NCBI RefSeq assembly: GCF_004010195.1
Contig: NC_057719.1
Coordinates: 21,699,557 to 21,763,556 of the forward strand
Length of the DNA stretch: 64,000 nt
Origin: Chiloscyllium plagiosum
Lineage: Eukaryota
Reading direction: 5' to 3'
Part shown: positions 5,548 through 64,000 of the stretch, piece by piece
How positions within the stretch are numbered: the first letter of the stretch is position 1
Layout of the letters: each line of letters starts with the position of its first letter
Notes under the pieces: generated by a model
What the model was told of the DNA's origin: nothing
Database searches by the model: none
What the model saw: only the letters and a program-made list of their open reading frames with translations
Made by a program: the position numbers and the translations under genes

Positions 5548-5676
5548 TTCCTGGTTAAGTGCTTTTGCTTGAAACGTCGATTCTCCTGCTACTTGGATGC
5601 TGACTGACCTGCTGTGCTTTTCCAGCACCACACTTTTGACTCTGATCTCGAGCATCTGCAGTCCTCACTTTCGCTC
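5548..5676 (+). mobile_element. PLE family A terminal fragment, decayed hammerhead
   Basis: GAAACGTCGATTCTCCTGCT...GCATCTGCAGTCCTCACTTTC matches the other family A copies; interrupts the CR1. Confidence 0.8.
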
Positions 5677-5978
5677 TGTCCTCAAGATGTCACCACTAAC
5701 TTCCCCAAGTTCCCAAGTCTCCACGGTAAACACAAAGGAGACATATTCATTGAGGAGCTTACTCATCTCCTGTGGTTCTACACATAATGTCCACTTCAGT
5801 CCTTGAGTGTCCTATTCTGCCCTTGGTTATTCCTTTTCCTTTAAGATACTTAAATAATCTCTTTAGATTTACCCTGACCTTCTCAGCCAAAGCAATGTCA
5901 TGCCCCCTTTTCATCTTCCTCATCATCATTTTCAGTAAACTCCTGTATCCCTGATATATCTCCAAGGATTAATCAACT

Positions 5979-6110
5979 AGAAAAAACTGAGGACTGCAGA
6001 TGCTGGAGATCAGAGTCAAAGAGAGTGTTGCTGGAAAAGCACAGCTGGTCAGGCAGCATCCGAGGAGCAGGCGAATCGACGTTTCGGGCATAAGCCCTTC
6101 ATCAGGAATT
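5979..6110 (-). mobile_element. PLE family A terminal fragment
   Basis: Reverse complement of the family A tail with an intact hammerhead core; interrupts the CR1. Confidence 0.85.
6074..6109 (-). ncRNA. Minimal type I hammerhead ribozyme motif
   Basis: Minus strand TTC-CTGATGA-A-GGGC-TTAT-GCCC-GAAA-C-GTC-GATT: core boxes, 4-bp helix II, ACGT helix III palindrome, GUC triplet. Confidence 0.8.
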
Positions 6111-7664
6111 CATCCTTGATCCCAGCTGCCTATACCTGAGCCATACCTCCTTCTTTTTTCTGGTCAAAGCCTCAATACCTCTGGTCATCCAGGGTTTCCT
6201 ATTTCTGCCAACCTTGCCCTCTCCCTTGCAGGAACACATAGACATTGAACTCTAGTTATCTCATATTTAAAGGACTCCCACTTGCCGGAGGTCCCTTTGC
6301 CTGCAAACAAACTACTCTAATCAACCCCCTGCAAGCTCCTATCTAATTCCATCAAAATTCACCTTGTCCCAATTTAGAACTTGAACCTGTGGACCAGTTT
6401 TTGTCCCTCTCCATAACTATTTTAAAATTAATAGAACTATGGTCACTGGTCCCAAACTGCTCCCCCACTGTCACCTCTGTCACCTGTCCTGGCCTATTTC
6501 CCAACAGTAGGTTGAGTTTTGCCCCTTCCAGAGTAGGACCCTCAATATACTGCTTGAGAAAACTTTCCTGAATACACTTAACAAATTCTAGCCTATCTAA
6601 GCCCTTAACGCTATGGCAGTTCCAGTCTATGTTAGGAAAATTTAAATCACCCACTATGACGACCCTATTGCTCCTGCAAATCTCCCTAGTCTCCCCGAAT
6701 ATTTATTTGTATACTACCCATTGACTATTTGTGGGCCTATACTACGACCCCAATAATGTCACCATTCCCTTCTTTTTTCCTAACTCCACTACGAAGTCTC
6801 ACTGAATGATCCCTTAGTCATTTCATTTCTGACTACTGCTGTGATACTTCCCTGAATCAAAAATGCAACTCCCCCTCCCCTCTTTCTTTCACCTCTGTCC
6901 CACCTAAGCACCTCCACCCTGGCACATTAAGCTGCCAATCTTTTCCCTTCCTTAGCAATGCTTCAGTAATGGCTATAATATCCCAGTCCCATGTACCTAT
7001 CCACACCCTGAGTTCATCAGCCTTACCTGCCAGCCCTTTTGCGTTAAAATACATGCAATTTAACCCAACAGGCATTCCTTGCTCCCTATTGTGTTCCAGC
7101 CTGACCTATCTCTTCAACTTGCTATTTCTAATTTAATATTCCATATTGGGATACACTACACTGTTAAAATTATTTGCTTCTGCAGCCATTTTCTTTTAGA
7201 AATCTGAAATACCCATTCCTGAGGTAAGAAGGGATTAAAATGAGACAGTTGCAATTTATGCCACTTTATTGAAACCACAATTATTCAATACATTCCCGAG
7301 GCAGGAACGTGTAGCAGTATTTTGGGTCAGCCACTTTGTTCAAAAGGACATATGTTACAGCCACTCAAAGTCACAGAAAACTTTGCGGCAAACTCCCGGA
7401 CCAGTTAAAAGTGGTTTAAGACCAGGGCAATCTTGCACTCAATATCCTGAAAACCCTGTTTAGGTATCAGATTAGGAGCTTAATCAATGTTAAGGAGGAT
7501 TTCACTTTCTGCATCTTAATGCTACACATTGACTCATTGAACAAGTGCATGGACTACAATATGGAGGCCTGGTATTGTGGGATTGTGGGATTTTGCCTCT
7601 TTGTCCTATTAGTAGCATTGTGCAAGTGTCAGCACCGCACCATGTTCAGAAAACCAGTGTGACC

Positions 7665-7748
7665 ACCACCAGCTTCTCAGAGCAGCAGGTGGTGGGCAAT
7701 AAATAGGGCATTGTCAACATTGCAGGCATCAAGTGAGCATATGAAAAG
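7665..7748 (+). mobile_element. L2/SINE-type 3' tail relic
   Basis: CCACCACCAGCTTCTCAG...GGGCAATAAAT resembles the tails at 42185-42250 and, reversed, at 48390-48470. Confidence 0.45.
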
Positions 7749-8204
7749 AAGTGAATCAGCACATATCCAACTCAAAACACTTGACAATGAGTTTCGTTAC
7801 CTTGAAGTTGCTTTCAGCTAAGCAAATTATAGCCACGGCTAATGACCATCAATGTACCTATGCACAAGCAAAAATGTCATCACTCATTTTCACACAAGAT
7901 AAATATTTGAGTCAAATGCAAAACAATAGTAACATCAAAGTATGGCTTGCGGTGTGTTATGTTCAGCTCATTGAGACCTTCAAAACATATTTCCACAACT
8001 TTACATTCCAGATCTATTGACATACCTTTGTTTCAATTTGAAAGGATTTAACACTGGGATTGTACTGCGGGTGGCAGGAATTTATTTTTCCTAATTTCCT
8101 CATTCATAATGATTTGTCATCAAACACTGTATTTTTCTCCCCCAGCTTGAATTATTTTACAAACTTTTGTGCTGGTCCTAAACCTGTGCAATTTGGATTT
8201 TGCA

Positions 8205-8415
8205 GTTTGCATTTATGTAGCACCTTTTACATAGTAAAACCTTCCAAGATGCTTCACAGAAGCATTATTGATCAAATTTGGATGTGGAGTTACCGAAGGA
8301 GATATTATGATAAAGCAGCTAAAAGGTTCTGAAGAAAGGGGGAACTTAAGGTGCAATGTTAACAATGAAAGAGAGATAGAGTTGAAGAGTTTTAAGGGGG
8401 CATTCCAAAATAGTA
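8205..8415 (-). mobile_element. L2-like LINE 3' relic
   Basis: TTGCATTTATGTAGCACCTTT...GCTTCACAG is the reverse complement of the tail type seen at about 41830-41900 and 54060-54140. Confidence 0.55.
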
Positions 8416-10183
8416 GGCGTATTTCCTTGTTCTTACATCTGGGTTTATTGGATCATAGTACATGTGCAATATTGGGACATGAAGCTCAATTGGCTGTCAG
8501 GAAACCTGCCTGAAATTTTGTCCATTTTCCCTCTATGTGCTACATATAGGTGATCCATTCCATCCAGTTGTCAAGGTGTTTTAGAATCCATGTTGTGTTC
8601 TGGAATGAAGGGAAATGGAGTGCGACTCCCTCTTCTGAAGGTGACTCAACTTTGTTTGTAATTCTCTAGCAGGTCAGGCTGAGATCAAAGTTATTTTGCA
8701 CTGTTGTTTCTGTACCGTTAGTGAAGGTAGATTGAAAAGTATGAATGAAGCACCTGGAGTAGTTGATTGCAAAACCTTCCCAATGAGCAAGTAGTAAATT
8801 CCATTCTCTAATAGCAGCAGTATGAAGTGAAACCACCTCTTCCACAGAGTGAAAATTTGGACGCAGTGTGTAATAAGTGGCCAATCCACCTCCACCAAAG
8901 TATACGATAACCTCCACTATGGATTAATGTAGCTCAATGGGATTATATTTAAAACTCACACAGAGACCACTTTCACCCATCCTTGCCTGCACAAAGAATC
9001 ATTTTGGATAGTTGCACATAACTATTTCTATGGAGGCAAAATGTAAGACGCAATAGGTTCAAGCACAAAAAGATGTGGAGGTGATACAAAATGATTGTTT
9101 CCAACAAATAAAGAATTTATATCATGGGACTGAACATATTTGAAGAGCACTGTGCAAGGAAGTTCAGACTTCATTAACAATACATTGCTGTAACATGTGA
9201 TTTGATTACTCAACCTTTTGGATAATTTATTAGATAAACCTCACTGCAAAGAAAGGAAGACAAGCCCTGAATGATTTCTTTTTCTGCCGGAGGCTTTTTC
9301 CAAGTTCGTGACGAAATTGTTCAATCTTAAATCATGTGAAAAGCTTTAGAAGCCTTCATGACGCATTCTTCGCACTTTATAAATTTTGTCAAAAGGAGCA
9401 CAACGAAAACCAGTTGTCAGGACAGGAGAAATGATAAACATGAGACTATGTTCCAGAAAGAATTGGGTGCGGTCAGCAGCACATACACCGAGAGAACTGA
9501 CCTCTCTCTGCAAATTCAGTGTCATGATCAAAAGCAATTAGTCTTGTTTGGCAGATAGTTAATTTGCTGTAAATATTGTAACTTTATAGTTATGGTCAAA
9601 AAGGATAGGTAACTCCAATGTGGAGACTAGGAAACTAAATACACAGGCACATATGGGCTATTTTTATCAGGCCTCTAGAAACTGGAGGGAGGGGGGCAGT
9701 GGCAGTGACCTGACCTTTAAAAAGCTGAAGATACACATGATTGGGTGATTTCCTAACATCTGTGCTAAACAATACTGTGATTCTACTTTCAGCCTCTGGT
9801 TTTGGACTTTTACACAAATGGAAGGAATTCTCCATATCAACTCTTATCAAAACCTTACTTTAAGACAGTCCATACAACCTTTGACCAAGCTTTTTTGCAG
9901 GGAGAGGTTTGTTAGCATGGCCACATTTCTGGTTTTGTTGACATCAATGAAAAACAGTCTGTGACATTGTTTGGCCCCCGGAAATTGATGTAAATGTGTG
10001 TGGTACTGCTAGAAATGGCACTATGTGAACACATTTCTCTCCTCAGTCATCTGCCCTATCTGCTTATGCAGGTTGGTGTCAATTTTTTTTCCCGAAACAT
10101 TCCTGCTAAAATGCCTGGGGATATTTTACTGTGTTTAATATATTTTATAAATTTAAATTTTCGTCATTGTTGTTAAAAGCAAA

Positions 10184-11430: not shown

Positions 11431-11444
11431 AAGGAGCTGGCTAA

Positions 11445-11735: not shown

Positions 11736-11739
11736 ACCA

Positions 11740-12467
11740 CAGCAAGCGCAGACTCCCTCTAATACACAAGCTCTCTCGCATGCGCACACACAATGCACCC
11801 TCCGCACTCACACCTATGCACGCATCCTCTCAAAAAGGCTTATATCCCCTCACACTCATACACATACTTGACCAAGCTTATGCACACATACACACAGTCT
11901 TTCACATGCACTCACAACCACATGCACACACTCACGTACACACATCCACTCTGTCTCTCCTGCACGCACACACACAGAAACTTATGGGGTGGGTTTGTAG
12001 CTGCAGAATTACTTTTTTTTTGCTCAAAACTGCATAAATCCATATAGGATTCTGAAAGGCCCACTTTGGGAATAAAATTGACTTAACATTAGGACAGACT
12101 TTAAGTTCACACCCTTAATACATTGTCTGAGCTAAGATGACACCTATTGTTAGATAAACTGAAGCCACCTTGAGAATGTAATTTAAAAGGAGTTTTCGAA
12201 TTTACATACCCCATCCTTAATCTAAGCATATCCCATCCTTAATCTAAGGCTTAATCTAAGTTTGTTTAATATATCATTACAATTCCATGACACTGTAACC
12301 CTTTTGCTATAAATTCTGTGTCTTCTGGTTCTGTTCCATAACCACCTAATGAAGGGGCAGTGCCTCAAAAGCTAGTTTTTCCAAATAAACCTGTTGGATT
12401 ATAACCTGGTGTTGTGTGATTTTTAACTTTGTCCATGCCATTCCAACACTGGCCCCTCCAAACCATG
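11740..12467 (+). mobile_element. PLE family B 3' region with CA-rich tract and decayed hammerhead
   Basis: Degenerate (CA)n at about 11780-11975; CACCTAATGAAGGGGCAGTGCCTCAAAAGCTAG (mutated core) followed by the family B tail CCAAATAAACCTGTTGGATTATAACCTGGTGTTGTGTG. The 5' limit is uncertain. Confidence 0.65.
12210..12260. repeat. Short local tandem duplication
   Basis: CCCATCCTTAATCTAAG at 12210-12226 and 12232-12248, plus CTTAATCTAAG at 12250-12260. Confidence 0.85.
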
Positions 12468-13299: not shown

Positions 13300-13480
13300 G
13301 TCACGCAACACCGGGTTATAGTCTAACTGGTATTTTTGAAAACGTAAGCTTTCAGTGACAGTGACTTCACCTGATGAAGGAGCAGTGCTCCCAAAGCTTG
13401 TGATTTCAAATAAACCTGTTGGATTATAACCTGGTGTCATGTGACTTCTGATACAGTCCAACATTGGCACCTCCATATCA
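13300..13480. mobile_element. PLE family B palindromic insertion
   Basis: Left arm 13300-13353 is an inverted copy of about 13392-13445. Hammerhead TCAC-CTGATGA-A-GGAGC-AGT-GCTCC-CAAA-GCTT-GTGA at 13367-13403 (GAAA mutated). Possible TSD TCATCCT(C/G)AGA. Confidence 0.8.
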
Positions 13481-13882
13481 TCATCCTGAGAGGACAGCAG
13501 GTTTGTATCTGTGGTGCCAGTGACAATCATCCAGGGTGACATCTAGTCCGAAAACCCAATAATTTATTGGACCACTGTTTGCTGGACTGTTGTGTAAGCC
13601 AATGCCTCCATGAAGACCGACATGGCACTAAAGGAGGCCATTATGACCTCAGTCTGAGATTTCATTGCAACATTGAGATAGTTACACCTTCGCCAATGCT
13701 ACAACAGATACTGCTGTTGCATTAAGTAGTAGTTACGAGACAATTACTGTTGAAGTTGCATTACCTTCACCCAATTTGATGATGTCATCCAGACTTTGGC
13801 TGAAAGCAAGTGAGTTCTGTCCATGTAGTTAAAGGGAGTATTCTGATGTATTCTTAAAGATGTATTCTGTACAGTTAACTTA

Positions 13883-14120
13883 AAACAAAGAACTGTGGAT
13901 TCTGGAAATGTGAAGCATGCAAAAGGAGAAAATGCTGAAAAAAATCAGCATATCTGACAGCATCTACAGACAGAAAACAGAGTTCATGTTTCAAGTCCAG
14001 TGATCATTCTTTAGAGTTTTGAATGATCATGTCACTGCGCTCAAAATTCTGTCAATTCTGCTTTCTCTCCATAGATGCTGCCAGGCCAGCTGAGTTTTTC
14101 TAGCAATTTCTGTATTTTTT
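13883..14120. mobile_element. PLE family D palindromic insertion, old
   Basis: The arm GAAAATGCTGAAAAAAATCAGCATATCTGACAGCATCTACAGACAGAAAACAGA is an imperfect inverse of TCTGCTTTCTCTCCATAGATGCTGCCAGGCCAGCTGAGTTTTTCTAGCAATTTC; degenerate TSD TGT(A/G)TTCTGTAC at 13861 and 14121. Confidence 0.7.
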
Positions 14121-16615: not shown

Positions 16616-17521
16616 TTGCATATTCTTGCATAACATCTCTATCTCTGTCTTCTCATTGGTTACATTTGACTCACAATAAGTCATTTTGTCCCAGTTCTCA
16701 ATTGGAAATGCTATTTTCTTGAACTACTCGTGTTCAAATAGGACATCAGACAAGTATTTGCACAAAAAGCTGAAGCGCTTGCATTGGTGTTAGAGACTTG
16801 TGTTTTCAGTAAACATGGGCCCAACAGTGTATTTGAATGGCTAGGCCAGAAGCTTCAATAGGCCTAAGCAATGAAGAAAATAGTGAAGATGGCACAGATT
16901 TCAAGAAGTCATATAGAACTTCAAGTACACCTGAGTCTGTGATTGTTGCAGGCAAACCATGTCAGTCCCAGAATACAGCTACAGGAGATCTTCTGACAAC
17001 ATGTCTTATGATCTTCTATCCATGTAAACGTCAGAAGTAACAATGTTCACAATAGTACAGTGTTCAAAGCCACTTGCAGGTCCTCAGATACTGAAGCAAT
17101 TGATGTCCATATGTGTTAAGATCTGGGCAACATTTCAGCTTAGGCTGAGAAATAACAAGTAGTATGCGCACCATACAAGTGCTGGACAATGAGTATCCTT
17201 AGTAACAAAGGATCAAACCATTGCCCCTTACCATTCAACAGCATTTTACTGAATTCCGTCACGCTCAACATTCTAGGGGTAACCTTTGACAAAAAACTGA
17301 ACTAAGACAGCTATTCAAAAATTGTGGTTATGAAAGTAAGTCAGAGACTAGGAATTCATTGATAAATTACTCACCACCTAATTCACCGAAACCTGTCCGC
17401 CATTGATAGTGCACTAGTTCGGAGTCTAATGGAATACACTTCACATTTAGAGATGCACTTCGCTGAGGCGACACTTAAGAAGCCCAACACAATTCAATTA
17501 AAAAAACGAGCATGATTGATA

Positions 17522-17716
17522 GAAAAGCGCAGCAGGTCAGGCAGCATCCAAGGAGCAGGAGAATCGACGTTTCAGGCATGAACCCTTCAGCAGAATAGCT
17601 TATATCCAAAACATTGATTTTCCTGGTCCTCAGATGCTGCCTGACCTGCTGTGCTTTTCCAGCACTATTCTCTCGACTCTGATATCCAGCATCTGCAGTT
17701 CTCATTTTCTCCCAGA
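17522..17716. mobile_element. PLE family A palindromic insertion
   Basis: Diverged inverted arms; 10-bp TSD ATGATTGATA at 17512-17521 and 17717-17726. Confidence 0.85.
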
Positions 17717-20710: not shown

Positions 20711-20800
20711 CATCGACGTTTCGGGTAGGAGTTCTTCATCAGGAATGAGGCTAGAAGCCTTGGGGGTGGAGGGAGAGAGAGGGGAAAGAGTGGGTCAGGT
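20711..20800 (-). mobile_element. PLE family A fragment with hammerhead core
   Basis: Minus strand ATTCCTGATGAAGAACTCCTACCCGAAACGTCGAT (helix II disrupted); purine-rich flank like 38750-38960. Confidence 0.65.
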
Positions 20801-21790: not shown

Positions 21791-22034
21791 TCTCCACATC
21801 CTTTTTGAGTTTTGGAAGAATGTGATGAGAGCTCTTACTTCAGTTTTAACATATGCACTTCATTTTAATCCCTCTTGAAAAATATTGCCTGAAAAGGTAT
21901 TCAAACATTTTTAGTTTGCTAACCAGAATACTAATTGTTAAAGGAGAAAGTGAGGTCTGCAGATGCTGGAGATCAGAGATGGAAATGTGTTGCTGGAAAA
22001 GCGCAACAGGTCAGGCAGCATCTAGGGAACAGGA

Positions 22035-22070
22035 GAATCGACGTTTCGGGCATTAGCCCTTCTTCAGGAA
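22035..22070 (-). ncRNA. Minimal hammerhead ribozyme motif
   Basis: Minus strand TTC-CTGAAGA-A-GGGC-TAAT-GCCC-GAAA-C-GTC-GATTC. Confidence 0.8.
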
Positions 22071-22110
22071 TGAGGAACCAACTTTCCTCATGCTGGACCA
22101 ACTTTCCTCA

Positions 22111-22146
22111 TTCCTGAAGAAGGGCTAATGCCCGAAACGTCGATTC
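22111..22146 (+). ncRNA. Minimal hammerhead ribozyme motif
   Basis: TTC-CTGAAGA-A-GGGC-TAAT-GCCC-GAAA-C-GTC-GATTC. Confidence 0.8.
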
Positions 22147-22498
22147 TCCTGTTCCCTAGATGCTGCCTGACCTGCTGCGCTTTTCCAGCAACACATTTCC
22201 ATTACTAATTGTTAAAATCTAACTTTAGTGGAAGAAAGTAATATCTAACTAACATTGTAATTTGCTAACAGTTGATTTCATTAAGTTTTCTTTTTGTAGG
22301 ATGGTAAAATATAGAAATAGGGCAATATATAAAATGATGTCAATGCAGAGCAATTCTGGGAGTTTGTATCAAGTTTTAAAACAGGGGCTTTGATGACTGT
22401 CTACGACAGAACAACTGCTTGCATGAGAATGAAATATAGATGTCTCTCTACTAAATATGGAAACACAGCTTGTAAAAATATTGAAATTCTGCATTAAA

Positions 22499-23840: not shown

Positions 23841-23849
23841 ATGCCTTTT

Positions 23850-26030: not shown

Positions 26031-26149
26031 TTATTAGTCCTACCTTGTCCCTGCCTGCCCTGACTGACTCACTTCTGTTCTCAGCTGTACCAGTCTCAGA
26101 TGGATCTCTTCCCTCACTATCTCCCTGGGTCCCACCACCGCCCGACACC

Positions 26150-26968: not shown

Positions 26969-28974
26969 TTTTGCTCCTTCACAATCTACAGACCCAGAAA
27001 ATAATACCATCTTATTCCTCTATAAAACACTGCCCCAGGTTAAATTAATAGTTATGGCTTATATTTTATGTTTAATCAAGAGACATATCTCAAAAACATA
27101 TAATCAAGAAAGAGCCCATTCTACTCACTACTGCAGACTTTCTGTAGGGCACACTTAAAACAATATACTTATCTGCTTCTGTGCTGTGAACTTCGCCCAA
27201 ACAGTTCCTCCAAGATCAGTTGTGAATTTCACTGTTTGTTAAGTTTCCGAGACACACTCTGATGTCCAGCGTGACATGAATTCAAACAGCAAAGGCAGTA
27301 CTGTGCCAGTACACTGTGGTGTCAGTTTCTTTCTCCCTCTTTCCCCTGCACTGACCTCACCATGTGCTTCCTTTGTCTGTTCTTCCTTTTAAAACTGCTG
27401 TTGTTTTGACTTTTTTTTGTCCAAAGTTCCAAAACAATGCAACAGCATGTAAAACAGTAACTGCTGCTCCTGGAATTAGAGGAAATCACTTCCAGCACCT
27501 AAGATACCTCAAAAAAGGAGCATCTGTTACAGCCAGAAATTTTTCCCATCCTCCATCTTGGATTACCCAGCATCCAGTAATGCAGAGACTCGAACAAACA
27601 GCTCTGCCAACCATCCAACCCAAACATGGGTCCGCTATGTGGATAACACCTTTGACATCATTAAATGAAACAAATTAGAGGAAACCTTCAAGACCATTAA
27701 TTATACACTTGCTGGCATAAAATTTACTAAAGAGGAGGAAAACAACAACAAACTGCCATTCCTAGACATCACAGTATAGTGAACAGCCAATGAAGAACTT
27801 CAAACCAGCATCTATAGAAAATAACACATGCGTACAAAGTATTGAACTATACAAGCAATCACCCCAACACCCATAAATTAATCTGCATAAGAACATTATT
27901 TCAATGAGCCACCACTCACTGCAGCACAGATGAACTGTGCGAACAGAGAAAAATCACCTATATGGTGTCTTCAAAAATGGGTACCCAACGAAAACAGTCC
28001 ACTGATTTCTCAGCAATAAACCCAAACAAACAGACAAAATGTGCCAGAAACCTTAGCCACTCTCCCCCACATCAAAGAATCTTGGAAATGACTGCCAGAC
28101 TACTCAGACCCCTTGGCATCATGGTAGCCCACAAACCCACCAATACACTAAAACAGCAGCTAATGAACTTGAAAGACTCTGTACAGACAATGAGCAAAAC
28201 TAATGTCACTTACAAAATATCGTGCAAGAATGTAACAAACACTACATTGGACAAACAGACAGAAAATTAGCCACCAGGATACATAACATCAACTGACCAC
28301 AAAAATCATGACCCTCTCTCATTAGTATCCTTACATAAAGATAAGGAAGAATACCACTTCAATTGGGACAACACATCCATCCTAGGACTAGTCAAACAGA
28401 GACATGCATCAGAATTCCTAGAAGCATGGCATTCCAACCAGAACCCTATCAATGAACACATTGACTTGGACCCCATTTTCCACCCCCTGAGAAAAAGAAC
28501 GGGAAATAACATCACCATAGGAAATGACATCACCACTGGAAATGGCATCACCAACCCAAAGAAATCCAAACATTAAATAAAAAGCAGGAATCATCAGCAG
28601 TGTTTTGTCTGGAGGCTCAATGAAGATGTTACCTAGTATAGTGATAAAACGTCTGAAAATGAACCTTCCAGCTCAGTGTGCAAACCTACATCCAGAACTT
28701 CAACTTGAGCGACTAATCTTCTCAAAACTTGCTGTACACTACTGACTATAAAGAGCACCAGTTGGGAGAATTAAATCAGTGTGCACCAGACTACACTAGT
28801 CATTAAAAGACTGGGATAAGCATATGGACATGAGCACATGAACTAATTGGACTAGTCCTTCCATAATGAAATCAAAATATCAGAGTCTGGTATATGTCTG
28901 TTTAATATATATAGCTGTATTTAGTAATATTGTGTAGTAAATAATATTACTTATAAGTTTAAGGCTAAAGAAAG

Positions 28975-33845: not shown

Positions 33846-34068
33846 GTTGAAACTTTATTGCTGGAACAGCACAGCAGGTCAGGCAGCATCCAGGGAACAG
33901 GAGATTCAACGTTTCGGGCACAGGCCCTTCTTTTCCTGAAGAAGGGCCTGTGCCCGAAACGTCGAATCTCCTGTTCCCTGGATGCTGCCTGACCTGCTGT
34001 GCTGTTCCAGCAATAAAGTTTCAACTTTGATCTCCAGCATCTGCAGACCTCACTTTCTCCTCGAAGAT
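33846..34068. mobile_element. PLE family A near-perfect palindrome, very young
   Basis: Arms 33844-33932 and 33939-34027 differ at one position by eye, 6-nt spacer; 12-bp TSD TTTTCCCTATAA at 33834-33845 and 34069-34080. Confidence 0.93.
33933..33966 (+). ncRNA. Minimal hammerhead ribozyme motif, intact
   Basis: TTC-CTGAAGA-A-GGGC-CTGT-GCCC-GAAA-C-GTC-GAA: helix I TTC/GAA, helix II GGGC/GCCC, GUC triplet. Confidence 0.85.
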
Positions 34069-34367: not shown

Positions 34368-34471
34368 GACCACATTCCTAATGAAGGGCTTATGCCTGAA
34401 AAGTTGATTCTCTTGCTCCTTGGAAAAGCTGCCCGCCCTGCTGTGCTGCTTTTCCAGCGTCACAGTTTTCG
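34368..34471 (+). mobile_element. PLE family A fragment, decayed hammerhead
   Basis: CATTCCTAATGAAGGGCTTATGCCTGAAAAGTTGATTCTC...CTTTTCCAGC. Confidence 0.75.
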
Positions 34472-38557: not shown

Positions 38558-38678
38558 TCCTCCCATGTTCTGGCAATTTGGCCGTCTTTTGGTACGTGTG
38601 CACATGTGCATATATATATAGCTTAAATGCCTGTTTCAGCATGATTCACTGTCTGCACTTTGGCAAATGTAGAGTTTA

Positions 38679-38960
38679 AAAGCACAGCCGGTCAGGAAAC
38701 ATCTGAGGAGCAGGAGAGTCGATGTTTTGAGCATGAGCACTTCATCAGGAATGTGGAGGGGTAAGCCCAAGGGGCTGACAGATAAAAGGCATGGGGGTGG
38801 GGCTGGAGGCAGGTAGCTGGGAATGTGATAGGTATATGAAGATGGGGGGGGGGTGGTGGTGATGGTGATAGGTTGGAGCAAAGGGTGAAATGGATAGGTA
38901 GGAAGGAAGATGGATAGGTTGGACAGTTCAAGAAGGTGGTGCCATGTTGGAGGGTTAGAT
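38679..38960 (-). mobile_element. PLE family A 3' region, decayed hammerhead
   Basis: Minus strand ATTCCTGATGAAGTGCTCATGCTCAAAACATCGAC preceded by a pyrimidine-rich tract. Confidence 0.75.
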
Positions 38961-45569: not shown

Positions 45570-47150
45570 CCAGAAGACATGGGAAGGTCATTCAGCCCAT
45601 CAAGACTGCATCATTATTCACTGAGGTCTTGGTGATCTGATATTCCTTATCTTCACTTTCCTACCTTTTACCTATTACATTGATTTCCTTACACATTAAT
45701 AATGTCTACCTCAGCATTGAATACACTGACAATTCAACATCTACAACCCACTGTGCTAAAGAGTTCTACAGATTCATACCTGAGAGGAGAAATTCTTCCT
45801 CATTTCTGTCTTAAATGTATGACCCCCTTACTCTGAGATTATACCCTTGGTCCTGGATTCTTGCACATGGGAAAATAACCTTTTCACATTCACCATGTTA
45901 AGTCTGCTAATATTCATACATGCTTCAATAAAGTTGTCTCTTATTCTTTGAAATCCCATTGGATACATGCCCAACTCTATTCAATCTGTCCTCGTAAGAC
46001 AGTCTGTCCATAACTGCTATCAGCCCAGTAAACCTTCTTTGGATTGCCTTAGAGAAGGGGCTCAAACTGTTCAAAGTATTCCAGCAGTGGTCTGGTTTGT
46101 ATAACTTGTATAATTTTTGCAAAACCTCCCTACTTTTATACTTAATTCCCTTTGAAATAAAACCTTTACCATTACTTACTGAACGTGGATACTAGCTTTC
46201 TGTGACTGCTGGACAAAGACTCACAAATTCGTCTGTTCTGTGGGATTTAGCAGTTTTCTCCCTTTAAGTAATATCCAGTTCCTCTACTCTTCCTGCCAAA
46301 GTGCACAACCTCACATTTTCCCCCATTATATTCCATTTACCACATGTTTTCCCACTTGCTTAATCAGTTTCTCTCCTCTCCAAACTCTTTGTGTCATCCT
46401 CATCAGTTACCATTCCACTTACTTTTGCGTCATCCCCAAATTTGGCAATAGTATATTCACTTGCCTCATCCAAGTCATTCATATATATTGTAAATAATCA
46501 TGCCTCAGCATGATTCCTGTGGCACACCACAAGTTACAGATCACCAGCCTAAAAATAGCCCCCTCTCTCAACCGTCTGTCTACTATTAGTCAGTCAATCT
46601 TCAGTCCATGCTAATATACTATCTTCAACTCATTGGGCTTGTATTTTATTATGTAAGCTAATACATGGCACCTTGTCAAATGCTTTCTGAAAACACAAAA
46701 ATCCACAGCTTCCCCTTTATCTATCCTGCTTGTTACATCCTTTAAAATTCTGATAAATTTGTCAGGTATAATTTCCCATTTGTTGACTCTGCTTGATCAT
46801 ATTTTTAAACGTGCTATCACATCCATTATAATAACCTTGAACAATTTCCTGTAACAGATATTAAGCTAACTGACCTATATTGTTAAAAATCACACAACAC
46901 CCAGTTATAGTCCAACAGGTTTCATTGGAAGCATACTAGCTTTCGTAGCATCGTTCCTTCATCAGGTCGCATCTCCAAATCATGACCCATATTGAACAAC
47001 CTGAGCGAGTTTTGAGAATATTTTTTGTCTCCTTTTGTCTCCTACACTCTTTAACTAATGGCATTATACTGGTAACTTTCCAAATCTCTGCTATTTTTCT
47101 TAGAATCTAAGGATTCCTGGAAAATTACTAACAGCGCACCCATGATCTCA
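45570..47150 (-). mobile_element. Old CR1 RT to 3' relic
   Basis: ORF 45925..46122 KAIQRRFTGLI...LSYEDRLNRVG; colinear with 33740-35780. Confidence 0.78.
46883..46982 (-). mobile_element. PLE family B fragment with hammerhead core and short inverted tip
   Basis: Minus strand AC-CTGATGA-AGGAACGATGCTAC-GAAA-GCTA-GT (46935-46967); TSD TGACC(T/C)ATATTG at 46871-46882 and 46983-46994. Confidence 0.82.
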
Positions 47151-47500: not shown

Positions 47501-47646
47501 CAAAAGTGAGGACTGTAGATGCTAGAAACCAGAGTTTAGATTAGAGTGGTGTTGGAAAAGCACAGCAGGTCAGGCACCATCCGAGGAGCTGGAAAATCAA
47601 CATTTCAGGCAAAAGCTCTTCATCAGAAATAGAGGCAGGGAGCCTC
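47501..47646 (-). mobile_element. PLE family A fragment
   Basis: Family A tail with decayed hammerhead; 8-bp TSD TATTATGG at 47493-47500 and 47647-47654. Confidence 0.8.
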
Positions 47647-48745: not shown

Positions 48746-48809
48746 TGTTCATTTAAATTGCATGAGCACGTTTGCTCCACAGTTACATGTTGACCCTTGC
48801 TTCATTCAG

Positions 48810-48935
48810 GAGAAAGTGAGGTCTGCAAATGCTGGAGATCAGAGCTGAAAATGTGTTGCTGGAAAAGCGCAGCAGGTCAGGCAGCATCCAGGGAACAGGA
48901 GAATCGACGTTTCGGGCATAAGCCCTTCTTCAGGG
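48810..48935 (-). mobile_element. PLE family A minimal insertion (126 bp), young
   Basis: Perfect 14-bp TSD CTTGCTTCATTCAG at 48796-48809 and 48936-48949. Confidence 0.92.
48901..48935 (-). ncRNA. Minimal hammerhead ribozyme motif
   Basis: Minus strand CC-CTGAAGA-A-GGGC-TTAT-GCCC-GAAA-C-GTC-GATTC; the element ends 2 nt upstream of the core. Confidence 0.75.
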
Positions 48936-50490: not shown

Positions 50491-51956
50491 TGCATGAAGT
50501 ATGACTTTATTCATGAATTTCTGCATTTTCATGAACATTTAATTGGAGAATGTCAAAAGGCAAATTTGATGAAGTTATTAAGTTGTTAAAAATAGAGAAT
50601 TTCATTGGATGGTCTATGACCAATCCAAAACTGGAGAGGAGATCAGAATAGGAACAATAAGTTTGAGCCATAATTAAATTGCTGACTACTCAATAAGTTC
50701 TGGTATGATCTAATTGGTTAAGGCATTAATTTGATAATTCTTCTGGTTGAATTATGTTGCTAGTTGGTTACTATACATAACTTGTTAATATTGTCAGTTA
50801 ATTAAATCTGCTTAACTGGCTCATGTTGTGGTGAGTTCATATTTTAGTTAGAAATGGACCATCAGCCTGAATTCCTATTTTTAAGAAAATTCAAGTACAA
50901 TATGGCAATCAAAAGACTTATTGTGGTGTAGATGTAGTAAAGCACTAATAAAATATTTTGTAATCTAACAAGTCTTACCTGTATGCAGCGATCAGTTGGT
51001 TTCAACATTTTGTCTCTCCAATTTGCCACTAGAGTAGAAGGAATCTACTTTGTGATGTCAGCATTATTTGGTGTGAATGCCATGCATTGATTGAAACCTG
51101 CTCTTACACGCCTGCATTTATGAAGATAACAGTCTTAAAAGTGATTAAAGCCCAGCAAAGAAGCAACAAGAAAAATACATTGAAATAGAAGCAGAAAAAG
51201 AGAATACATATAAAGAAAAGCCAAACCATTAAAAAGAATAGTTCAGTATACCACTTAGAAAAAAAGCAAAGGCCTTCAGCAAAATATGGAAGGCACATAA
51301 ACAATTCTGGATTGGAAGCCTATTTTACGTTCTCTAAATTACTGCTATTCAAGAAATGTATGCAGCACTGTTTTACTGATTAAGTGAAATATGATTCTGT
51401 GAAGAAATTTCTGAAAATCTTGTCTGCTATCGCCAAGGAGGTGTCTTACTGAATTAATTCATCCAGTCTTTCAGTGGAGGAACAGAAAAACTAAGAAAAG
51501 ATCTGGAGAGTATTTAAAGACCAGCTAAGGTACCTTCAGGATTAGCAGAATCTAATTCATATCATACAAACACCAAGAGTCTACTGGTGATTTTGTACAA
51601 GATGCTGCAGTAATAGGCATGAGTGTGATTCCTCTGCCTCTACACTTCTTAAAGCCTTCAGGAAGAAACTTGTGGACCAGGAAAAGGGTCATACTACTGA
51701 TGTTTTGCTTGAGGATGGATACAAGCAATGAAGCCATGAGTCATCAATAAACAACAGCATGCGAGAGGTGCAGCCAAGGATTTTACTAGATGCAAAACCC
51801 ACACCACGGTGGTAGTCTTGAGAAGATGATTTGATGTATTCCTATTGTTGCATAATATTGCAAGTTGACTATTATTCCTGCTTAAAGTTTGTGAGAAGAT
51901 TTGTAGCTCGGGTGCTCGTTGCTGTGGTTCTGTTCGCCGAGCTGGAAGTTTTTGTT

Positions 51957-51996
51957 GCAAACGTTTCGTCCTCTGTCTAGGTGACATCCTCAGTGC
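51957..51996 (-). ncRNA. Minimal hammerhead ribozyme motif
   Basis: Minus strand GCA-CTGAGGA-T-GTC-ACCTAGACAGAG-GAC-GAAA-C-GTT-TGC: helix I GCA/TGC, helix II GTC/GAC, GUU triplet. Confidence 0.78.
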
Positions 51997-52102
51997 TTGG
52001 GAGCCTCCTGTGAAGCGCTTCTGTGGTGTTTCCTCCGGCATTTATAGTGGCCTGTCCCTGCCGCTTCCGGTTGTCAGTTTCAGCTGTTCGCTGTAGTGGC
52101 CG

Positions 52103-52245
52103 NNNNNNNNNNNNNNNNNNNNNNNNNNNNNNNNNNNNNNNNNNNNNNNNNNNNNNNNNNNNNNNNNNNNNNNNNNNNNNNNNNNNNNNNNNNNNNNNNN
52201 NNNNNNNNNNNNNNNNNNNNNNNNNNNNNNNNNNNNNNNNNNNNN
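52103..52245. other. Assembly gap (N run)
   Basis: Run of Ns. Confidence 0.99.
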
Positions 52246-52899
52246 AGTGGTCACAGTAGTCTGGCTGTCATTTTAGAGATGTTCTTGATGTATGGTAGTG
52301 TGGCTAGACCTTTGGGTTGTGGCATGTCCTCGTTCTGTTGTCTTTCCCTTAGGCATCTGTTGATGAAATTGCGTGGATATCCATTTTTTGCGAATGCCTT
52401 GTATAGGTGTTCCTTTTCCTCTTTTTGCAGTTCTGGTGTGCTGCAGTGTGTTGTGGCCCTTTTGAATGGTGTCTTGATGCAACTTTGTTTGTGTGTATTG
52501 GGGTGGTTACTTTCATAGTTCAGGACTTGGTCTGTGTGTGTGGCTTTCCTGTGTACCTGCATGTAGCATTATTCCTGCATGTAGCTCTTGATTTTCCTTA
52601 TTTACTTGATTTAGATAAATATGTATGTACCCTTTACACTTCAAATGTTCATGGCCAGATTACTAACAGAAGACAAAGATTACAAAAATGTCAGGTTATC
52701 TTCATGTGAAAAGGTCCTGGAAGAAAATATAATGCATATATATTTGTACAAATGAGAAAGTAAACAAATACTTTACAAATGTTAACACATTAAATTGTGA
52801 TCCTCTTACACAGAATTGGTATATGTATTAGGTGTCAGTTACAGAAAAATTCTATCTTCAAAAGATTTTAAAATAACCTTCAGGTTTTTTAATGTTTAT

Positions 52900-54890: not shown

Positions 54891-55763
54891 CCTTACTTTG
54901 TTCAAGTCATAAAACTTCTTACTCATCTGCTCTGAGGTGTTTCCAGTTGTTTATTCTGCGATAATCAATTCAAAAGTTAAAGAATTAGAAATCCTCGCGG
55001 TGGAGCTATGCTACATTTCCATTCCACAAAGCAGCTTTGCAATTTCGTTCTATTTCAAATTTCCAAAACGTCAGTATATTTCTTTTGGTTTAAGGTTTCA
55101 GGCTCCATTCGTCATGCTCCTCCAACTATTTAGGGCAATTGATTGGAAATTTATTGCATGAGGAGTGTGGCTTTCTTTCATTATCATTCGTGCTTAGACT
55201 GCACAAAAGTTTAGAAACAAAATCAACAGCACCCATCATAAATTTGTGTTAAATTCCACGTTATGGGTAATTAGCCCTGGCTATGTAAAAAGAGTCAAAA
55301 ACAGCCAAGTCTAAAGCAATTACTGCTTAATTTCCTGACTTTCTGCAACTATTACCAGGAACTGACATTTCACAGAGTGTTACTTTCATGAGTATTCTTT
55401 GGTTTCATTTGTAATTTATATTTTGTTATCTGATCCGATTCTTTGTTAAAAAAAGAGAGAGCCTGTGTCTAAGGGGCATAATTTAAAAATTAAAACCAGA
55501 CTTTTCTGGAGCATAATTAGGAAACACATCTAAATTTTGAGACTGGTAAAATCTAGAACTTCCTTCTGCAAAACATTTAATTGTTCATTTTAAACCTGAG
55601 ATTGGTCAGCAAAAGTTCACTAAAGATATTAAGGGAATTGGGTAAGTCAGAGTATGTGAAGTTTGCTTAGTTCACTTGTGAGACATGGAACATGGGTGTC
55701 ACAAATAACGTTCCTTCCGAACTGTGTGTGTTCATGATCAGATTGTTCTGTGGTATAATGAGA

Positions 55764-55856
55764 GCTTGTGCTTCCAAATAAACCTGTTGGGCTATAATGT
55801 AATGTTGTGTGATTTTTAACTTTGTCCATCCCAGTCCAACATGGGCTCCTCCAAGT
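55764..55856 (+). mobile_element. PLE family B minimal insertion starting at the ribozyme cleavage region
   Basis: GCTTGTGCTTCCAAATAAACCTGTTGG...CTCCTCCAAG; 10-bp TSD TATAATGAGA at 55754-55763 and 55857-55866. Confidence 0.85.
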
Positions 55857-56054: not shown

Positions 56055-56588
56055 TACTAGAGAGCTGTTTTTGAGATGAAAATAGTCACAATTTTTAAAA
56101 CTTTTCATCTTGCTGTTATTGGGGCAATTCATAAAAGATGCTGAAGTAATGGGAAAACAACACTTATACTGTATGAGAAGACAGTACTGATTGGTCACAA
56201 GCAGACTCTGATTTGATTACCATAGAAAATTCATCAGAACTACAAAGCTCTGTTCTTTGTAGATAGAAAGAACATGTACAAATACTGCACTTGTTGCAAT
56301 TCAACAAAAGAATTGTTAGTCATTCTCTGGTTCATGTCTCAGAGCAATGTCTTGGCTAATAAAGCAAAAATGTCTGCTTTAAAATTTAAACAAAGCTTGG
56401 TGGTTAACTGTCAGTCAAATTTACTCTGCATTCACCATGGCAATGCCAAACAATTAATACTGTCCTTTCATGGAGTATAAACATTGTTTTTCTTTACTTT
56501 GGCATTTCTTGCCATTTGTCCTGATGATAACAAGATGAAACATGTCTTTTTTCAATAAAAACAAGTTCTGTACTACCAAATGACTATT
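56055..56588. mobile_element. Old element with long degenerate inverted repeats and a hammerhead-like core (family E, probably PLE-derived)
   Basis: About 56100-56193 is an imperfect inverse of about 56450-56540; GTC-CTGATGA-TAACAAGAT-GAAA at 56518-56540. Confidence 0.6.
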
Positions 56589-61572: not shown

Positions 61573-61650
61573 AGGGTGGGAGGGGAAAGGTATAAAAGAG
61601 ACCTCAGGGGCAGGGTGGGAGGGGAAAGGTATAAAAGAGACCTCAGGGGC
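61573..61650. repeat. Perfect 39-bp tandem duplication inside CR1 ORF2
   Basis: AGGGTGGGAGGGGAAAGGTATAAAAGAGACCTCAGGGGC at 61573-61611 and 61612-61650 (RVGGERYKRDLRG twice). Confidence 0.95.
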
Positions 61651-61890
61651 AATGTTTTCCACGTAGAGGGTGGTACGGGTATGGAATGAGCTGCCAGAGG
61701 AAGTGGTGGAGGCTGGTACAATTGCAACATTTAAAAGGAATTTGGATGTGTATATGAATAGGAAGGGTTTGGAGGGATATGGGCCAGGTGCTGGCAGGTG
61801 GGACTGGATTGGTTTGGGATATCTGGTTGGCATGGATGGGTTGGACTGAAGAGTCTGTTTCTGTGCTGTTCATCTCTATGACTCTATGAC

Positions 61891-62000
61891 TGTAACTGTG
61901 GATTCTGGAAATCTGCAACAAAAACAGAAATTGCTGGAGAAACACAGAAGGTCTGGAAGCATCTGTGGATATAAACAGACTTAATGTTTCAGAACTCAGT
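61891..62000 (-). mobile_element. PLE family D terminal fragment
   Basis: AACTGTGGATTCTGGAAATCTGCAACAAAAACAGAAATTGCTGGAGAAAC...GCATCTGTGG matches 13883-13990. Confidence 0.7.
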
Positions 62001-62624
62001 CTTTAAGTTACCTCACTGAGTTTGAAAGTTTGTTATCAGACTTTTCATCACCATACTAGGTAATATAATCAGTGGGAGTCTCTGGTGAAGTGCTGGTCAT
62101 ATGTCCTGCCTCTCTATTTATAGGTCTTGGCTTCTTAAGGTGGGTGATGTCATTTCTGACTCGTTTTTCAAGGGAAGATAGATAGGATCTAAGTTGATGT
62201 GTCAATTGATGGAGTTCTGGTTAGAATGCAATGCCTCTAAGAATTCTTGTGCATGTCTTTGTTTCGCCTGTCCTCGGATGTGTATGTTGTCCCAGTCAAT
62301 TTGGTGTCATTCTTTGTCTGTATGTATGAAAACTAGTCTTTTGGTGGCCAGTTGGTATTCATGTATCATGGTGGCAAGCTTCCTGCTAGTTTGTCCGATG
62401 TAGTGTTTTTTTTTACTGTTCTTGCATGGTATCTTGTAAACGACATTAGTTTTGCTGGTGATATCTAAAAAAAAGAACCAGAATGACACCAATGCTTCAC
62501 CAGAGACTCTCACTGATGATGTTACCTAGTATAGTGATGAAACGTCTGAAAACAAACCTTCCAGCTCAGCGAGCTAACTTACAGACTTATCATCAACCTG
62601 AGTTACAAATCTTCTCAAAAGTGA
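62001..62624. mobile_element. PLE family C inverted insertion: GIY-YIG + terminal repeat (-) joined to a terminal repeat (+)
   Basis: Minus strand TNVVYKIPCKN...HYIGQTSRKLATMIHEYQLA (ORF 62307..62513); plus-strand repeat from about 62470; 14-bp TSD TTTCAGAACTCAGT at 61987-62000 and 62625-62638. Confidence 0.9.
62510..62549 (+). ncRNA. Minimal hammerhead ribozyme motif
   Basis: TCA-CTGATGA-T-GTTAC-CTAGTATA-GTGAT-GAAA-C-GTC-TGA: helix I TCA/TGA, helix II with G-U pairs, GUC triplet. Confidence 0.8.
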
Positions 62625-63094
62625 TTTCAGAACTCAGTTTAGCACAGACTGGCTGAGCTTTTCCACTCTACTGCTACTTACTGGAGTTATATCGAGGCAA
62701 ATATCTACTAGCATTGGGAGCAGTCCAGAGAAAGTTAACCAGGCTGATACTAGGTATGACCATATGTACTGAATAGGGCCATTCAACCTCTTGAACCTGA
62801 GATGTTGATCTGTAGTCTAACTCCATGCACGCGCTTTCAGCCCATTTCCCTTAATACCTTTGCTTAACAAAATTTTATTGGACTCAGACTTAAAATTAAC
62901 AACTGACCTAGTATCCACTGCTGTTCATGGAACAGAGTTTGACTTATTTAAGAAGGATGCTTCCAAATTCTGATCATCGTCCAGCAACCATAGAGGAATC
63001 TGCACTTACAGAAGTTGAGCAAGGATTGTATTGTAGTAAGCTGTGATGTTCACCATGAGGAACAGTTTTCTGGTATTTACTGTCAAGGCTCACA

Positions 63095-63490
63095 ACAAAA
63101 TCTTGTCTTTCAGTAGTGCTTTTAGCATAATGAAGCATCCCATGTCATTTCACAGGAATGTCATTTTAACACCAAGCTACTTAAGGTGATACTCGGGCAC
63201 GTTGACAAAACTTGAGTCTGAGATACGTTTTAAGCAGAATATTAAGGGACAAACAAAGTAGTAGAGATGGAGATATTTAGAGAATGAATTCAAAGGTTTG
63301 GTCCAAGGGAACTGAAGGCATTCAGGCACAATTAGGATCAGGACTTCAAAGTACATTGTTAGACATGAGTGTTTATCTAATTGTTTTTGGGACGTGTAAG
63401 ATTAAAGAGATGGGAAGGGCTGAGGTCATGAAGGGATTTAAAGCCAGGGTGAGAATTTTAAAATTGATGCACAACATAACTGGGAACAAA
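63095..63490 (-). mobile_element. L2-like LINE 3' relic
   Basis: Similar to 8205-8415; AGGGTGAGAATTTTAAAATTGATG is the reverse of the FKIL motif. Confidence 0.55.
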
Positions 63491-63492
63491 CG

Positions 63493-64000
63493 TAGGTAAA
63501 ACCAATGACTGCAGATGCTGGAAACCAGATTCTGGATTAGTGGTGCTGGAAGAGCACAGCAGTTCAGGCAGCATCTGAGGAGCAGTAAAATTGATGTTTC
63601 GGGCAAAAGCCCTTCATCAGGAATACAGGCAGAGAGCCTGAAGGGTGGAGAGNNNNNNNNNNNNNNNNNNNNNNNNNNNNNNNNNNNNNNNNNNNNNNNN
63701 NNNNNNNNNNNNNNNNNNNNNNNNNNNNNNNNNNNNNNNNNNNNNNNNNNNNNNNNNNNNNNNNNNNNNNNNNNNNNNNNNNNNNNNNNNNNNNNNNNNN
63801 NNNNNNNNNNNNNNNNNNNNNNNNNNNNNNNNNNNNNNNNNNNNNNNNNNNNNNTCTGCTAGGAGGCGCTCAGTCTCCCCAATGTAGAGGAGACCGCATC
63901 GGGAGCAATGGATACAATAAATGATATTAGTGGATTTGCAGGTAAAACTTTGATGGATGTGGAAAGCTCCTTTGGGGCCTTGGATGGAGGTGAGGGAGGA
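63493..64000 (-). mobile_element. PLE family A longer copy: GIY-YIG endonuclease + 3' repeat with hammerhead; runs off the window
   Basis: 64000-63855 translates open as SSLTSIQGPKGAFHIHQSFTCKSTNIIYCIHCSRCGLLYIGETERLLA (Neptune-type GIY-YIG by inference); minus strand ATTCCTGATGAAGGGCTTTTGCCCGAAACATC at about 63593-63624; the link crosses a gap. Confidence 0.85.
63653..63854. other. Assembly gap (N run)
   Basis: Run of Ns. Confidence 0.99.

What the first reader, a model, noticed from the sequence alone, without database searches (positions are those of the whole stretch)
5548..63624. Dense population of minimal hammerhead ribozymes carried by several Penelope-like families
Seen: the CTGANGA...GAAA core recurs in unrelated sequence contexts while helix sequences change but stay paired. 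Family A has helix II GGGC/GCCC with variable loops (TTAT 6074 and 48901, TAAT 22035 and 22111, CTGT 33933, TTTT about 63600). Family B has GGAGC/GCTCC with helix I TCAC/GTGA (13367). Family C has GTTAC/GTGAT with TCA/TGA (62510) and GTC/GAC with GCA/TGC (51957). Family E has a core at 56521; family D copies are too decayed to read. Helix III is reduced to ACGT or AGCT. Established: PLE terminal repeats encode minimal type I hammerheads thought to cleave as dimers through a palindromic helix III. Inference: this genome carries very many ribozyme-bearing mini-elements, and any transcript crossing this locus carries several potential self-cleavage sites on each strand. The ORF track shows none of this.
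Basis: partly seen in the sequence, partly recalled or inferred. Interest (0 to 1): 0.75.

Follow-up and report, generated by a model that had tools for sequence, protein, structure and literature searches.

The report
Uncut Penelope ribozyme stubs, cap run-off
The self-cutting-RNA motifs are real and very abundant, but they are a known feature sitting in short end-pieces of ordinary Penelope-like jumping genes; the ends of these pieces likely record copies made from capped, uncut RNA, a testable clue to how this poorly understood class inserts itself.

Summary
Observation mostly confirmed: 7 intact minimal type I hammerhead cores in the window, 0 in each of 12 shuffles; about 20 further arms are decayed (13371 has lost G12; 56521 does not fold). 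They are the known hammerheads of Penelope-like element (PLE) pLTRs: family A follows a Neptune-type RT/GIY-YIG ORF, C a Poseidon-type ORF, B a third GIY-YIG ORF. The genome holds 86,254 (A) and 17,799 (B) exact cores, against 4,000-9,000 reported in coelacanth and Xenopus. They look like insertion stubs, not a separate mini-element class. 3' ends fall at two sites about 37 nt apart; head-to-head pairs have one long and one short arm (30 of 32; 12 of 13). 5' ends cluster at an A about 30 nt after a TATA-like box, with excess G before it (55 and 68 of 100; neighbouring controls 14, 18, 27). About 1% start at the cleavage site. Likely reading: run-off cDNAs from internal initiation to the cap of uncut RNA. 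Cleavage of host transcripts is unsupported. The scan's earlier unreviewed notes reached this reading on other DNA, including this genome.

The parts
5982..6109 (-). Family A solo stub, long 3' end; intact core 6105-6078; starts at the A four bases before the core
21943..22202 (.). Family A head-to-head insertion: long arm (core 22067-22040, -) and short arm (core 22114-22141, +), both cores intact; 14-bp target duplication at 21929-21942 and 22203-22216; folds as one long hairpin
33846..34068 (.). Family A (CTGT) head-to-head insertion: short - arm lacking the core start, long + arm with intact core 33936-33963; 12-bp target duplication at 33834-33845 and 34069-34080
48808..48934 (-). Family A solo stub, long 3' end; core 48933-48906 intact but helix I lost and helix II predicted to mispair with the flank; target duplication present
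63494..64000 (-). Family A (TTTT) pLTR, core at 63620 with decayed helix III, preceded across an N gap (63653-63854) by a GIY-YIG endonuclease remnant (64000-63857)
17516..17712 (.). Family A head-to-head insertion, both cores mutated
5548..5672 (+). Decayed family A stub
20712..20760 (-). Decayed, 3'-truncated family A piece (core at 20742, helix II broken)
34370..34468 (+). Decayed family A stub
38678..38797 (-). Decayed family A pLTR with C-rich upstream region
47503..47645 (-). Decayed family A stub
12287..12466 (+). Family B pLTR with long upstream region and CA-rich tract; core at 12346 mutated
13301..13481 (.). Family B head-to-head insertion; + arm core 13371-13399 has good helices I and II but CAAA in place of GAAA
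22494..22625 (.). Family B head-to-head remnant, core start missing
46882..46967 (-). Family B stub, helix II broken
55760..55854 (+). Family B remnant without core
51918..52559 (-). Family C1: 3' part of a Poseidon-type PLE ORF (52559-52245), N gap, pLTR with intact core 51993-51960
27475..28727 (+). Family C2: broken Poseidon-type RT and GIY-YIG remnant followed by pLTR with mutated core at 28620
61998..62622 (.). Family C2 inverted arrangement: decayed - arm (core 62072), endonuclease remnant (62456-62337, -), + arm with intact core 62513-62546
13935..14106 (.).
56103..56560 (.).

Best explanation
These are the known minimal hammerhead motifs in the terminal repeats (pLTRs) of at least four Penelope-like retrotransposon families, and most short copies are likely dead insertion stubs made when the element's reverse transcriptase started inside the RNA and ran back to its capped, still uncut 5' end. 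Shown here: linkage to RT/GIY-YIG ORFs; two fixed 3' ends about 37 nt apart; one long plus one short arm in head-to-head pairs; target duplications; 5' ends clustered at an A about 30 nt after a TATA-like box with excess G before it; almost no 5' ends at the cleavage site. Inferred: that A is the transcription start and the G is the copied cap; the two 3' ends are the two internal initiation sites measured in vitro for the Anolis element; each end of the target break primes one cDNA, one from each site, and the two cDNA ends are joined head to head (one surviving arm gives a solo stub). The ribozyme is kept by selection on master copies and likely cuts only as a protein-assisted dimer; inserted copies decay and likely do little to host RNA.
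For: ORF link: L284 has a 754-aa open frame with RVT_1 (E 9e-8) and GIY-YIG (E 2.5e-4, just under the cut-off) and a C-X4-C-X2-C linker, running into the family A core. C1 cores lie 3' of the PLE ORF in most of the 28 loci scanned (RVT_1 in 3 of 4 tested frames). B follows a GIY-YIG-like frame in L213, L126, L119. 3' ends are bimodal: A about +88-93 and +125-127, B about +83-89 and +123. Head-to-head pairs long+short: 30 of 32 (A, p 1e-7) and 12 of 13 (B, p 0.002), no long+long. Of 93 young A events, 49 start at -5 to +10, 29 further upstream, 4 at +27 to +31; B 0 of 24 at the cut. Genome-wide, 11,363 of 43,094 A copies lose the match just before A(-4), whereas 286 have a purine at the cut position against 30,451 with the templated C; 17 of 30 inspected were true truncations; the control one base upstream gave 171. 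Base before the start A, first 100 rows tallied by hand: G 55 (A) and 68 (B), expected 26; controls 14, 27, 18; Fisher p 9e-5 and 8e-13. TATA-like box at -32 in 33 of 44 A-alpha, -33 in 11 of 15 A-beta, -28 to -32 in 16 of 24 B copies. RNA reads show loose ends at the same boundaries and span the cut. Pooled variation: core 0.028, body 0.081/0.067, loop II 0.23/0.34. Literature: internal initiation at two sites defining the tail, both strands extended, uncut RNA the main substrate, protein-assisted cleavage (PMC11167929); untemplated G read as cap for L1 and SVA (PMC4859970).
Against: No direct 5'-end RNA data. The A-beta subfamily shows no overall G excess (29 of 100, expected 29; G:A 29:21, p 0.012), partly diluted by templated C. 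For family A the G:A ratio alone does not differ from its control (Fisher p 0.16). In the 7 solo A copies with G and a target duplication of 7 bp or more, the G lies inside the duplication, so it is not directly shown to be untemplated. The 5' pile-up is broad: loss rates are 21% at -4, 26% at -5, 16% at -6. C1 5' ends did not pile up at its presumed start in ORF-biased loci. A weak excess at the cut cannot be excluded (4 of 13 and 7 of 25, p 0.10 and 0.06; under twofold genome-wide). Target duplications of 7 bp or more were found in only 11 of 28 A and 4 of 9 B inverted events. The core-conservation figure is biased by requiring an intact 5' alignment. Absence of cut-site starts shows only that inserted RNAs were uncut, not that the ribozyme never cuts in vivo.
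Confidence: 0.72

Rival explanations
1. The short copies are self-standing non-autonomous ribozyme mini-elements (retrozyme- or SINE-like), mobilised by PLE protein, whose hammerheads cut their own and host transcripts.
For: Very many short copies with target duplications; family A sequence is present in polyA RNA reads (1,857 laid in run X19); retrozymes derive from PLE pLTRs (bioRxiv 10.64898/2026.07.22.740005).
Against: Same sequence as ORF-linked pLTRs; stubs lack the TATA-like box that lies upstream of their start; none of the 9 tandem-repeat rows is a hammerhead array; about 1% start at the cut; 93% of laid reads run on into unlike flanks, as passengers in other transcripts would; most window copies are decayed or sequestered.
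Confidence: 0.08
2. Head-to-head stubs arise by self-priming on an antisense template (model proposed in PMC3846280) rather than by two target-primed cDNAs from sense RNA.
For: Many junctions are near-perfect palindromes; arms share subfamily in 20 of 28 A events (expected 9.7) and are more alike (0.93) than arms of different events in the same subfamily (0.89).
Against: It does not by itself predict one long plus one short arm in 42 of 45 pairs, nor stops at a sense-strand TATA-spaced A with excess G. One B locus shows G before the start A on both arms (L234/L235). In vitro the Anolis protein extends both strands from sense RNA (PMC11167929).
Confidence: 0.1
3. The 5' pile-up is a microhomology hotspot (target ATT annealing to the element's ATT), not a transcription start.
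For: Solo A junctions often share AT(T) with the target and the G lies inside the duplication; the Anolis nuclease prefers ATT (PMC11167929).
Against: A second ATT at +29 is far colder (4 events at +27 to +31 against 21 at -5 to -3); family B starts at ACA, with the strongest G excess and TATAAA about 30 nt upstream.
Confidence: 0.09
4. The motifs are chance matches.
For: The bare CTGANGA heptamer is common; 56521 does not fold.
Against: 7 against 0 in shuffles; 64 against 0 in reversed sequence; 86,254 and 17,799 against 0 in controls.
Confidence: 0.01

Closest known systems
Minimal hammerheads (min-HHR) in pLTRs of metazoan Penelope-like elements (Cervera and de la Pena 2014, PMC4209133; read parts 1-2 of 4 and searched one supplement)
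   Same: Type I topology, extra base between positions 9 and 10.1, G10.1-C11.1 pair, palindromic 15.2-16.2 without a real helix III, several families per genome, mostly dispersed single motifs, some close pairs on opposite strands.
   Different: Copy number at least 104,053 exact A+B cores against about 4,000 (coelacanth) and 9,000 (Xenopus), by different search methods; helix II (3-5 bp) and helix I (2-4 bp) are shorter than in Schistosoma; no shark entry in the supplement searched (one file could not be searched).
Poseidon element of Anolis carolinensis, PAc (Frangieh et al. 2024, PMC11167929; read parts 1-2 of 4)
   Same: Hammerhead at the pLTR-ORF junction, two 3' ends defining a 30-40-nt tail, AT-rich junctions, no RNA ends at the cut.
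   Different: Here the evidence is genomic and mostly from Neptune-type families; the parts read do not describe cap run-off 5' ends or the long/short rule in inverted pairs.
Canonical EN+ PLE insertions with inverted 5'-truncated pLTR, one-sided tail, TATA/Inr and TSD (PMC3846280, PMC8557442, PMC2377424; passages only)
   Same: Inverted pLTR, tail on one end only, target duplication, promoter inside the pLTR.
   Different: Here the insertion is reduced to the 90-130-nt leader alone, in hundreds of thousands of copies, and the data favour two sense-templated cDNAs over antisense self-priming.
Non-LTR retrozymes (bioRxiv 10.64898/2026.07.22.740005; read part 1 of 5 and passages)
   Same: Type I hammerhead, derived from PLE pLTR, non-coding.
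   Different: Retrozymes are head-to-tail tandem repeats with a hammerhead per unit; these are solo or head-to-head stubs.

Membership tests
PLE minimal type I hammerhead | Core CUGANGA...GAAA...UH with helix II | tested here: met
   7 window copies, 64 in 1.02 Mb; not met for 13371, 63620, 56521
PLE minimal type I hammerhead | Extra base between A9 and G10.1; palindromic 15.2-16.2 | tested here: met
   All 64 strict hits carry the extra base, which the descriptor left optional; the palindrome was required by the descriptor
PLE minimal type I hammerhead | Helix I closes the junction | tested here: inconclusive
   3-4 bp in B, C and A-CTGT; only 2 bp in most A copies, predicted pairing probability at most 0.19 in window A copies
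PLE minimal type I hammerhead | Helices covary between families | tested here: met
   Helix II GGGC/GCCC, GGAGC/GCTCC, GTC/GAC; helix I TC/GA, CAC/GTG, GCA/TGC, TCA/TGA, CCA/TGG (by inspection; the automatic alignment did not keep cores in register)
PLE minimal type I hammerhead | Self-cleavage as dimer | not testable with these tools
   Helix III 4-mers duplex at only -1.7 to -2.5 kcal/mol
EN+ Penelope-like element | Single ORF with RT and C-terminal GIY-YIG upstream of the pLTR | tested here: met
   A; C1; B: only the endonuclease end seen
EN+ Penelope-like element | Inverted pLTR, 30-40-bp tail on one end, TSD | tested here: met
Neptune/Nematis versus Penelope/Poseidon clade | Zn-finger-like linker between RT and EN | tested here: met
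   Present in family A, absent in C1; no tree built, so Neptune versus Nematis rests on recalled distribution
Non-LTR retrozyme | Head-to-tail tandem units, each with a hammerhead | tested here: not met
   No such array in the window; sample events are solo or head-to-head; not searched genome-wide
Rfam Hammerhead_1 and related models | Score against the covariance model | tested here: not met
   No hammerhead family among 8 matches at E up to 10

The most novel reading that the evidence does not exclude
Nearly a million PLE stubs in this genome are a fossil record of the PLE integration reaction in a vertebrate germ line: the enzyme primes both ends of the cut target, uses a different internal start site for each end, copies a capped sense RNA straight through an uncut hammerhead 28-37 nt from the cap, and joins the two cDNAs head to head. 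The ribozyme would then not make the template's end; it would act as a dimer- or protein-triggered switch that removes the cap and so limits the element's own translation.
Probability: 0.45. Interest if true: 0.68.

Novelty: new member of a known kind. Interest (0 to 1): 0.42.

Why it matters
Hammerheads in PLE pLTRs are textbook, so the finding as written is ordinary apart from its scale (about 63 intact cores per Mb; A plus B about 272 copies per Mb). The value lies in the junction statistics. The PLE integration mechanism and the role of the hammerhead are open questions (PMC8557442, PMC11167929). These data give three sharp predictions: transcription start at a named base, cap copying, and one initiation site per target end. 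They argue against hammerhead cleavage defining the template's 5' end and against the antisense self-priming model. I did not find the cap signature or the long/short rule for PLEs in the held library; subscription papers, including Lunse et al. on dimer cleavage, and bioRxiv supplements were not readable, so priority is not established.

Tried and rejected
Rfam scan: no hammerhead hit. Automatic alignment across families did not keep cores in register and one row was mis-chosen; not used. Pfam on window PLE remnants gave no RT or GIY-YIG hit, so longer genomic copies were used. Host-gene search: 0 hits in 150 of 207 unique segments; whether a transcript crosses the window remains open. No RNA holder was listed for the window stretch; run X20 laid 0 reads. 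Family E as an intact hammerhead: rejected. Tandem retrozyme: rejected for the window. Cleavage-site start as a main class: rejected at about 1%, small excess not excluded. G excess in A-beta: not significant overall. C1 start-site pile-up: not seen. Lunse et al. (PMC5785218) not held; its content is known only through the review PMC6765202 (passages). PMC13000458 passages gave nothing on caps. PMC6155905 passages: no shark data. No earlier notes near this window.


Full report
Setting. The window is G000:C10:21699557-21763556 in a 3.56-Gb animal genome. At least 47% of it matches repeats in the loci I held, mainly CR1-type LINE pieces (RVT_1, endonuclease and weak esterase hits; the CR1 name is recalled). 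A cartilaginous fish is likely from recalled repeat types and from the scan's earlier notes; I did not test this.

Observation. A strict minimal-hammerhead descriptor finds 7 intact cores (6105-, 22067-, 22114+, 33936+, 48933-, 51993-, 62513+) and 0 in each of 12 shuffles. In 1,022,266 bases not chosen for these repeats (window, its flanks and 80 fixed-position 10-kb stretches) it finds 64, and 0 in reversed sequence. Exact patterns give 86,254 family A and 17,799 family B matches genome-wide with 0 in the controls. About 28 arms of these families lie in the window, by my count. Rfam does not see them.

Identity. Family A is the pLTR of a PLE with a Zn-finger-like RT-EN linker: L284 has a 754-aa open frame with RT and GIY-YIG that runs into the core, and the same endonuclease end precedes the window's 63620 copy. 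Family C1 follows a linker-less, Poseidon-type ORF in the window (52559-52245) and in most of 28 genomic loci; C2 follows a related ORF at 27475-28287. Family B follows a third GIY-YIG-like frame and a CA-rich 3' region (31-35% identity to A's endonuclease). The clade criterion is from PMC8557442 (passages); no tree was built. The motif matches the min-HHR of PMC4209133 in the extra base, the G-C closing pair and the palindrome. Helices differ between families and stay paired. Pooled over subfamilies, non-CpG core sites vary least (0.028), the body more (0.081 and 0.067) and loop II most (0.23 and 0.34) (79 A and 29 B copies with intact 5' alignments, a biased subset). This fits selection on master copies.

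Anatomy of the short copies. The sample holds 218 A arms (180 events, 38 head-to-head) and 60 B arms (43 events, 17 head-to-head), which scales to roughly 0.9 million arms. 3' ends fall at two places about 37 nt apart, the PLE tail. In PMC11167929 the tail is the stretch between two internal RT start sites, both target strands are extended, uncut RNA is the main substrate and cleavage needs the protein. Among head-to-head pairs with both arms at least 85% identical to a reference, 30 of 32 (A) and 12 of 13 (B) have one long and one short arm and none has two long arms, while solo copies split 55/62 and 10/13. The window's 21943-22202 and 33846-34068 insertions follow the rule and carry 14- and 12-bp target duplications.

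5' ends. Of 93 young A events (at least 90% identity, not at gaps or edges; 87 of 180 dropped), 49 begin at -5 to +10 relative to C3, 29 further upstream, 4 at +27 to +31 around the cut and 11 elsewhere; of 24 young B events (19 of 43 dropped) 10 begin at -10 to -3 and 0 at the cut. Genome-wide nested patterns give loss of match in 11,288 of 54,382 at -4, 11,363 of 43,094 at -5 and 5,191 of 31,731 at -6. At the cut only 286 copies have a purine in place of C17 against 30,451 with C; 17 of 30 inspected were truncations, and the neighbouring control gave 171 with 15 of 30. So about 1% start at the cut. The base before the start A is G in 55 of the first 100 rows for A and 68 of 100 for B (expected 26), against 14, 27 and 18 at neighbouring positions (statistics; rows all from contig C1, tallied by hand). 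Untemplated G is the accepted cap signature for L1 and SVA (PMC4859970, passages), and TATA/Inr in pLTRs is known (PMC3846280, PMC2377424, passages). Against: A-beta shows no overall G excess; the A-family G:A ratio is not different from its control; in 7 solo A copies the G lies inside the target duplication; C1 shows no pile-up in ORF-biased loci.

Mechanism. Transcription likely starts 4 (A) or 8 (B) bases before the core. The protein likely cuts both target strands, and each end primes at one of the two internal sites, +88 or +125. Near the 5' end of the RNA this yields a 90-130-nt cDNA that stops at or near the cap; at a downstream pLTR it yields longer copies with 3'-UTR and ORF pieces. 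Two cDNAs joined at their ends give the head-to-head form; one survivor gives the solo form. Either way the polymerase passed through an uncut hammerhead. This shows what was inserted, not that the ribozyme never cuts; a cut RNA would lose its cap and might simply leave the cycle (inference). The antisense self-priming model (PMC3846280) explains palindromes and the arm similarity (20 of 28 same subfamily, identity 0.93 against 0.89) but not the long/short rule or the G.

Host effect. Of the 7 intact cores, three sit in long perfect hairpins (-186 and -214 kcal/mol), 48933 mispairs with its flank, and helix I of family A is rarely formed in the predicted ensemble. Published min-HHRs are inactive as monomers and weak as dimers. 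Family A reads in a polyA single-cell run of the same species label (1,857 laid, about 2% of the run read) span the cut, with loose ends at -4, about +85/89 and +125 and no begin/end pile-up; only 6 of 139 loose-end rows were shown and the library is poorly suited. No host exon was found. The claim that crossing transcripts are cut is therefore unsupported, though untested.

Novelty. A new, very abundant set of members of a known kind. The cap-run-off and one-site-per-end readings were not found in the held library, but 177 earlier scan findings hold the same search words and several reach the same reading, in this genome and others; these are unreviewed and not independent support. One (e1-9162017) reports a hairpin starting at the cut; my counts leave room for such cases only as a small minority. 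Interest 0.42.

Noticed in passing
window:18918-20353, 23929-26872, 58015-61891 and others: Many broken CR1-type LINE pieces on both strands (RT, endonuclease and esterase-like ORF1 hits); the CR1 name is recalled.
   Followed up: partly
window:12770-13111, 16307-16613, 29006-29314, 34930-35221, 38209-38564, 59260-59529: A 300-bp SINE-like family in 6-7 copies (D1/D3/D4/D7); resembles the shark HE1 SINE from recall.
   Followed up: no
L081, L078, L117, L239, L249, L281 and window:33930-33969: The CTGT/ATGT subfamilies of family A have a perfect 4-bp helix I, while the commoner subfamilies carry a U-U mismatch; the best candidates for activity tests.
   Followed up: partly
L284:3327-5588, L281:3348-5864, L286:3905-5767: The family A reading frame stays open through the C-rich 3' region and the hammerhead itself (in L281 and L284 over 750 codons), so translation could run across the ribozyme.
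   Followed up: no
window:63653-63854, 52103-52245; many loci: Assembly N gaps often fall inside or next to pLTRs, so full-length and tandem PLEs are probably under-assembled.
   Followed up: no
family A positions +19/20, +24/25, +27/28: Three CpG pairs lie in or beside the core (G12, helix III, C17), so methylation decay should inactivate inserted copies quickly (variation 0.09-0.29).
   Followed up: partly
L193 and L194 (G000:C1:3888225 and 3891909): Two near-identical family A insertions with the same flanks 3.7 kb apart: a local duplication after insertion.
   Followed up: no
L279:616-700; window:13935-14106, 61931-62008: An older hammerhead family (helix II with a longer loop) sharing its downstream part with family A.
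   Followed up: partly
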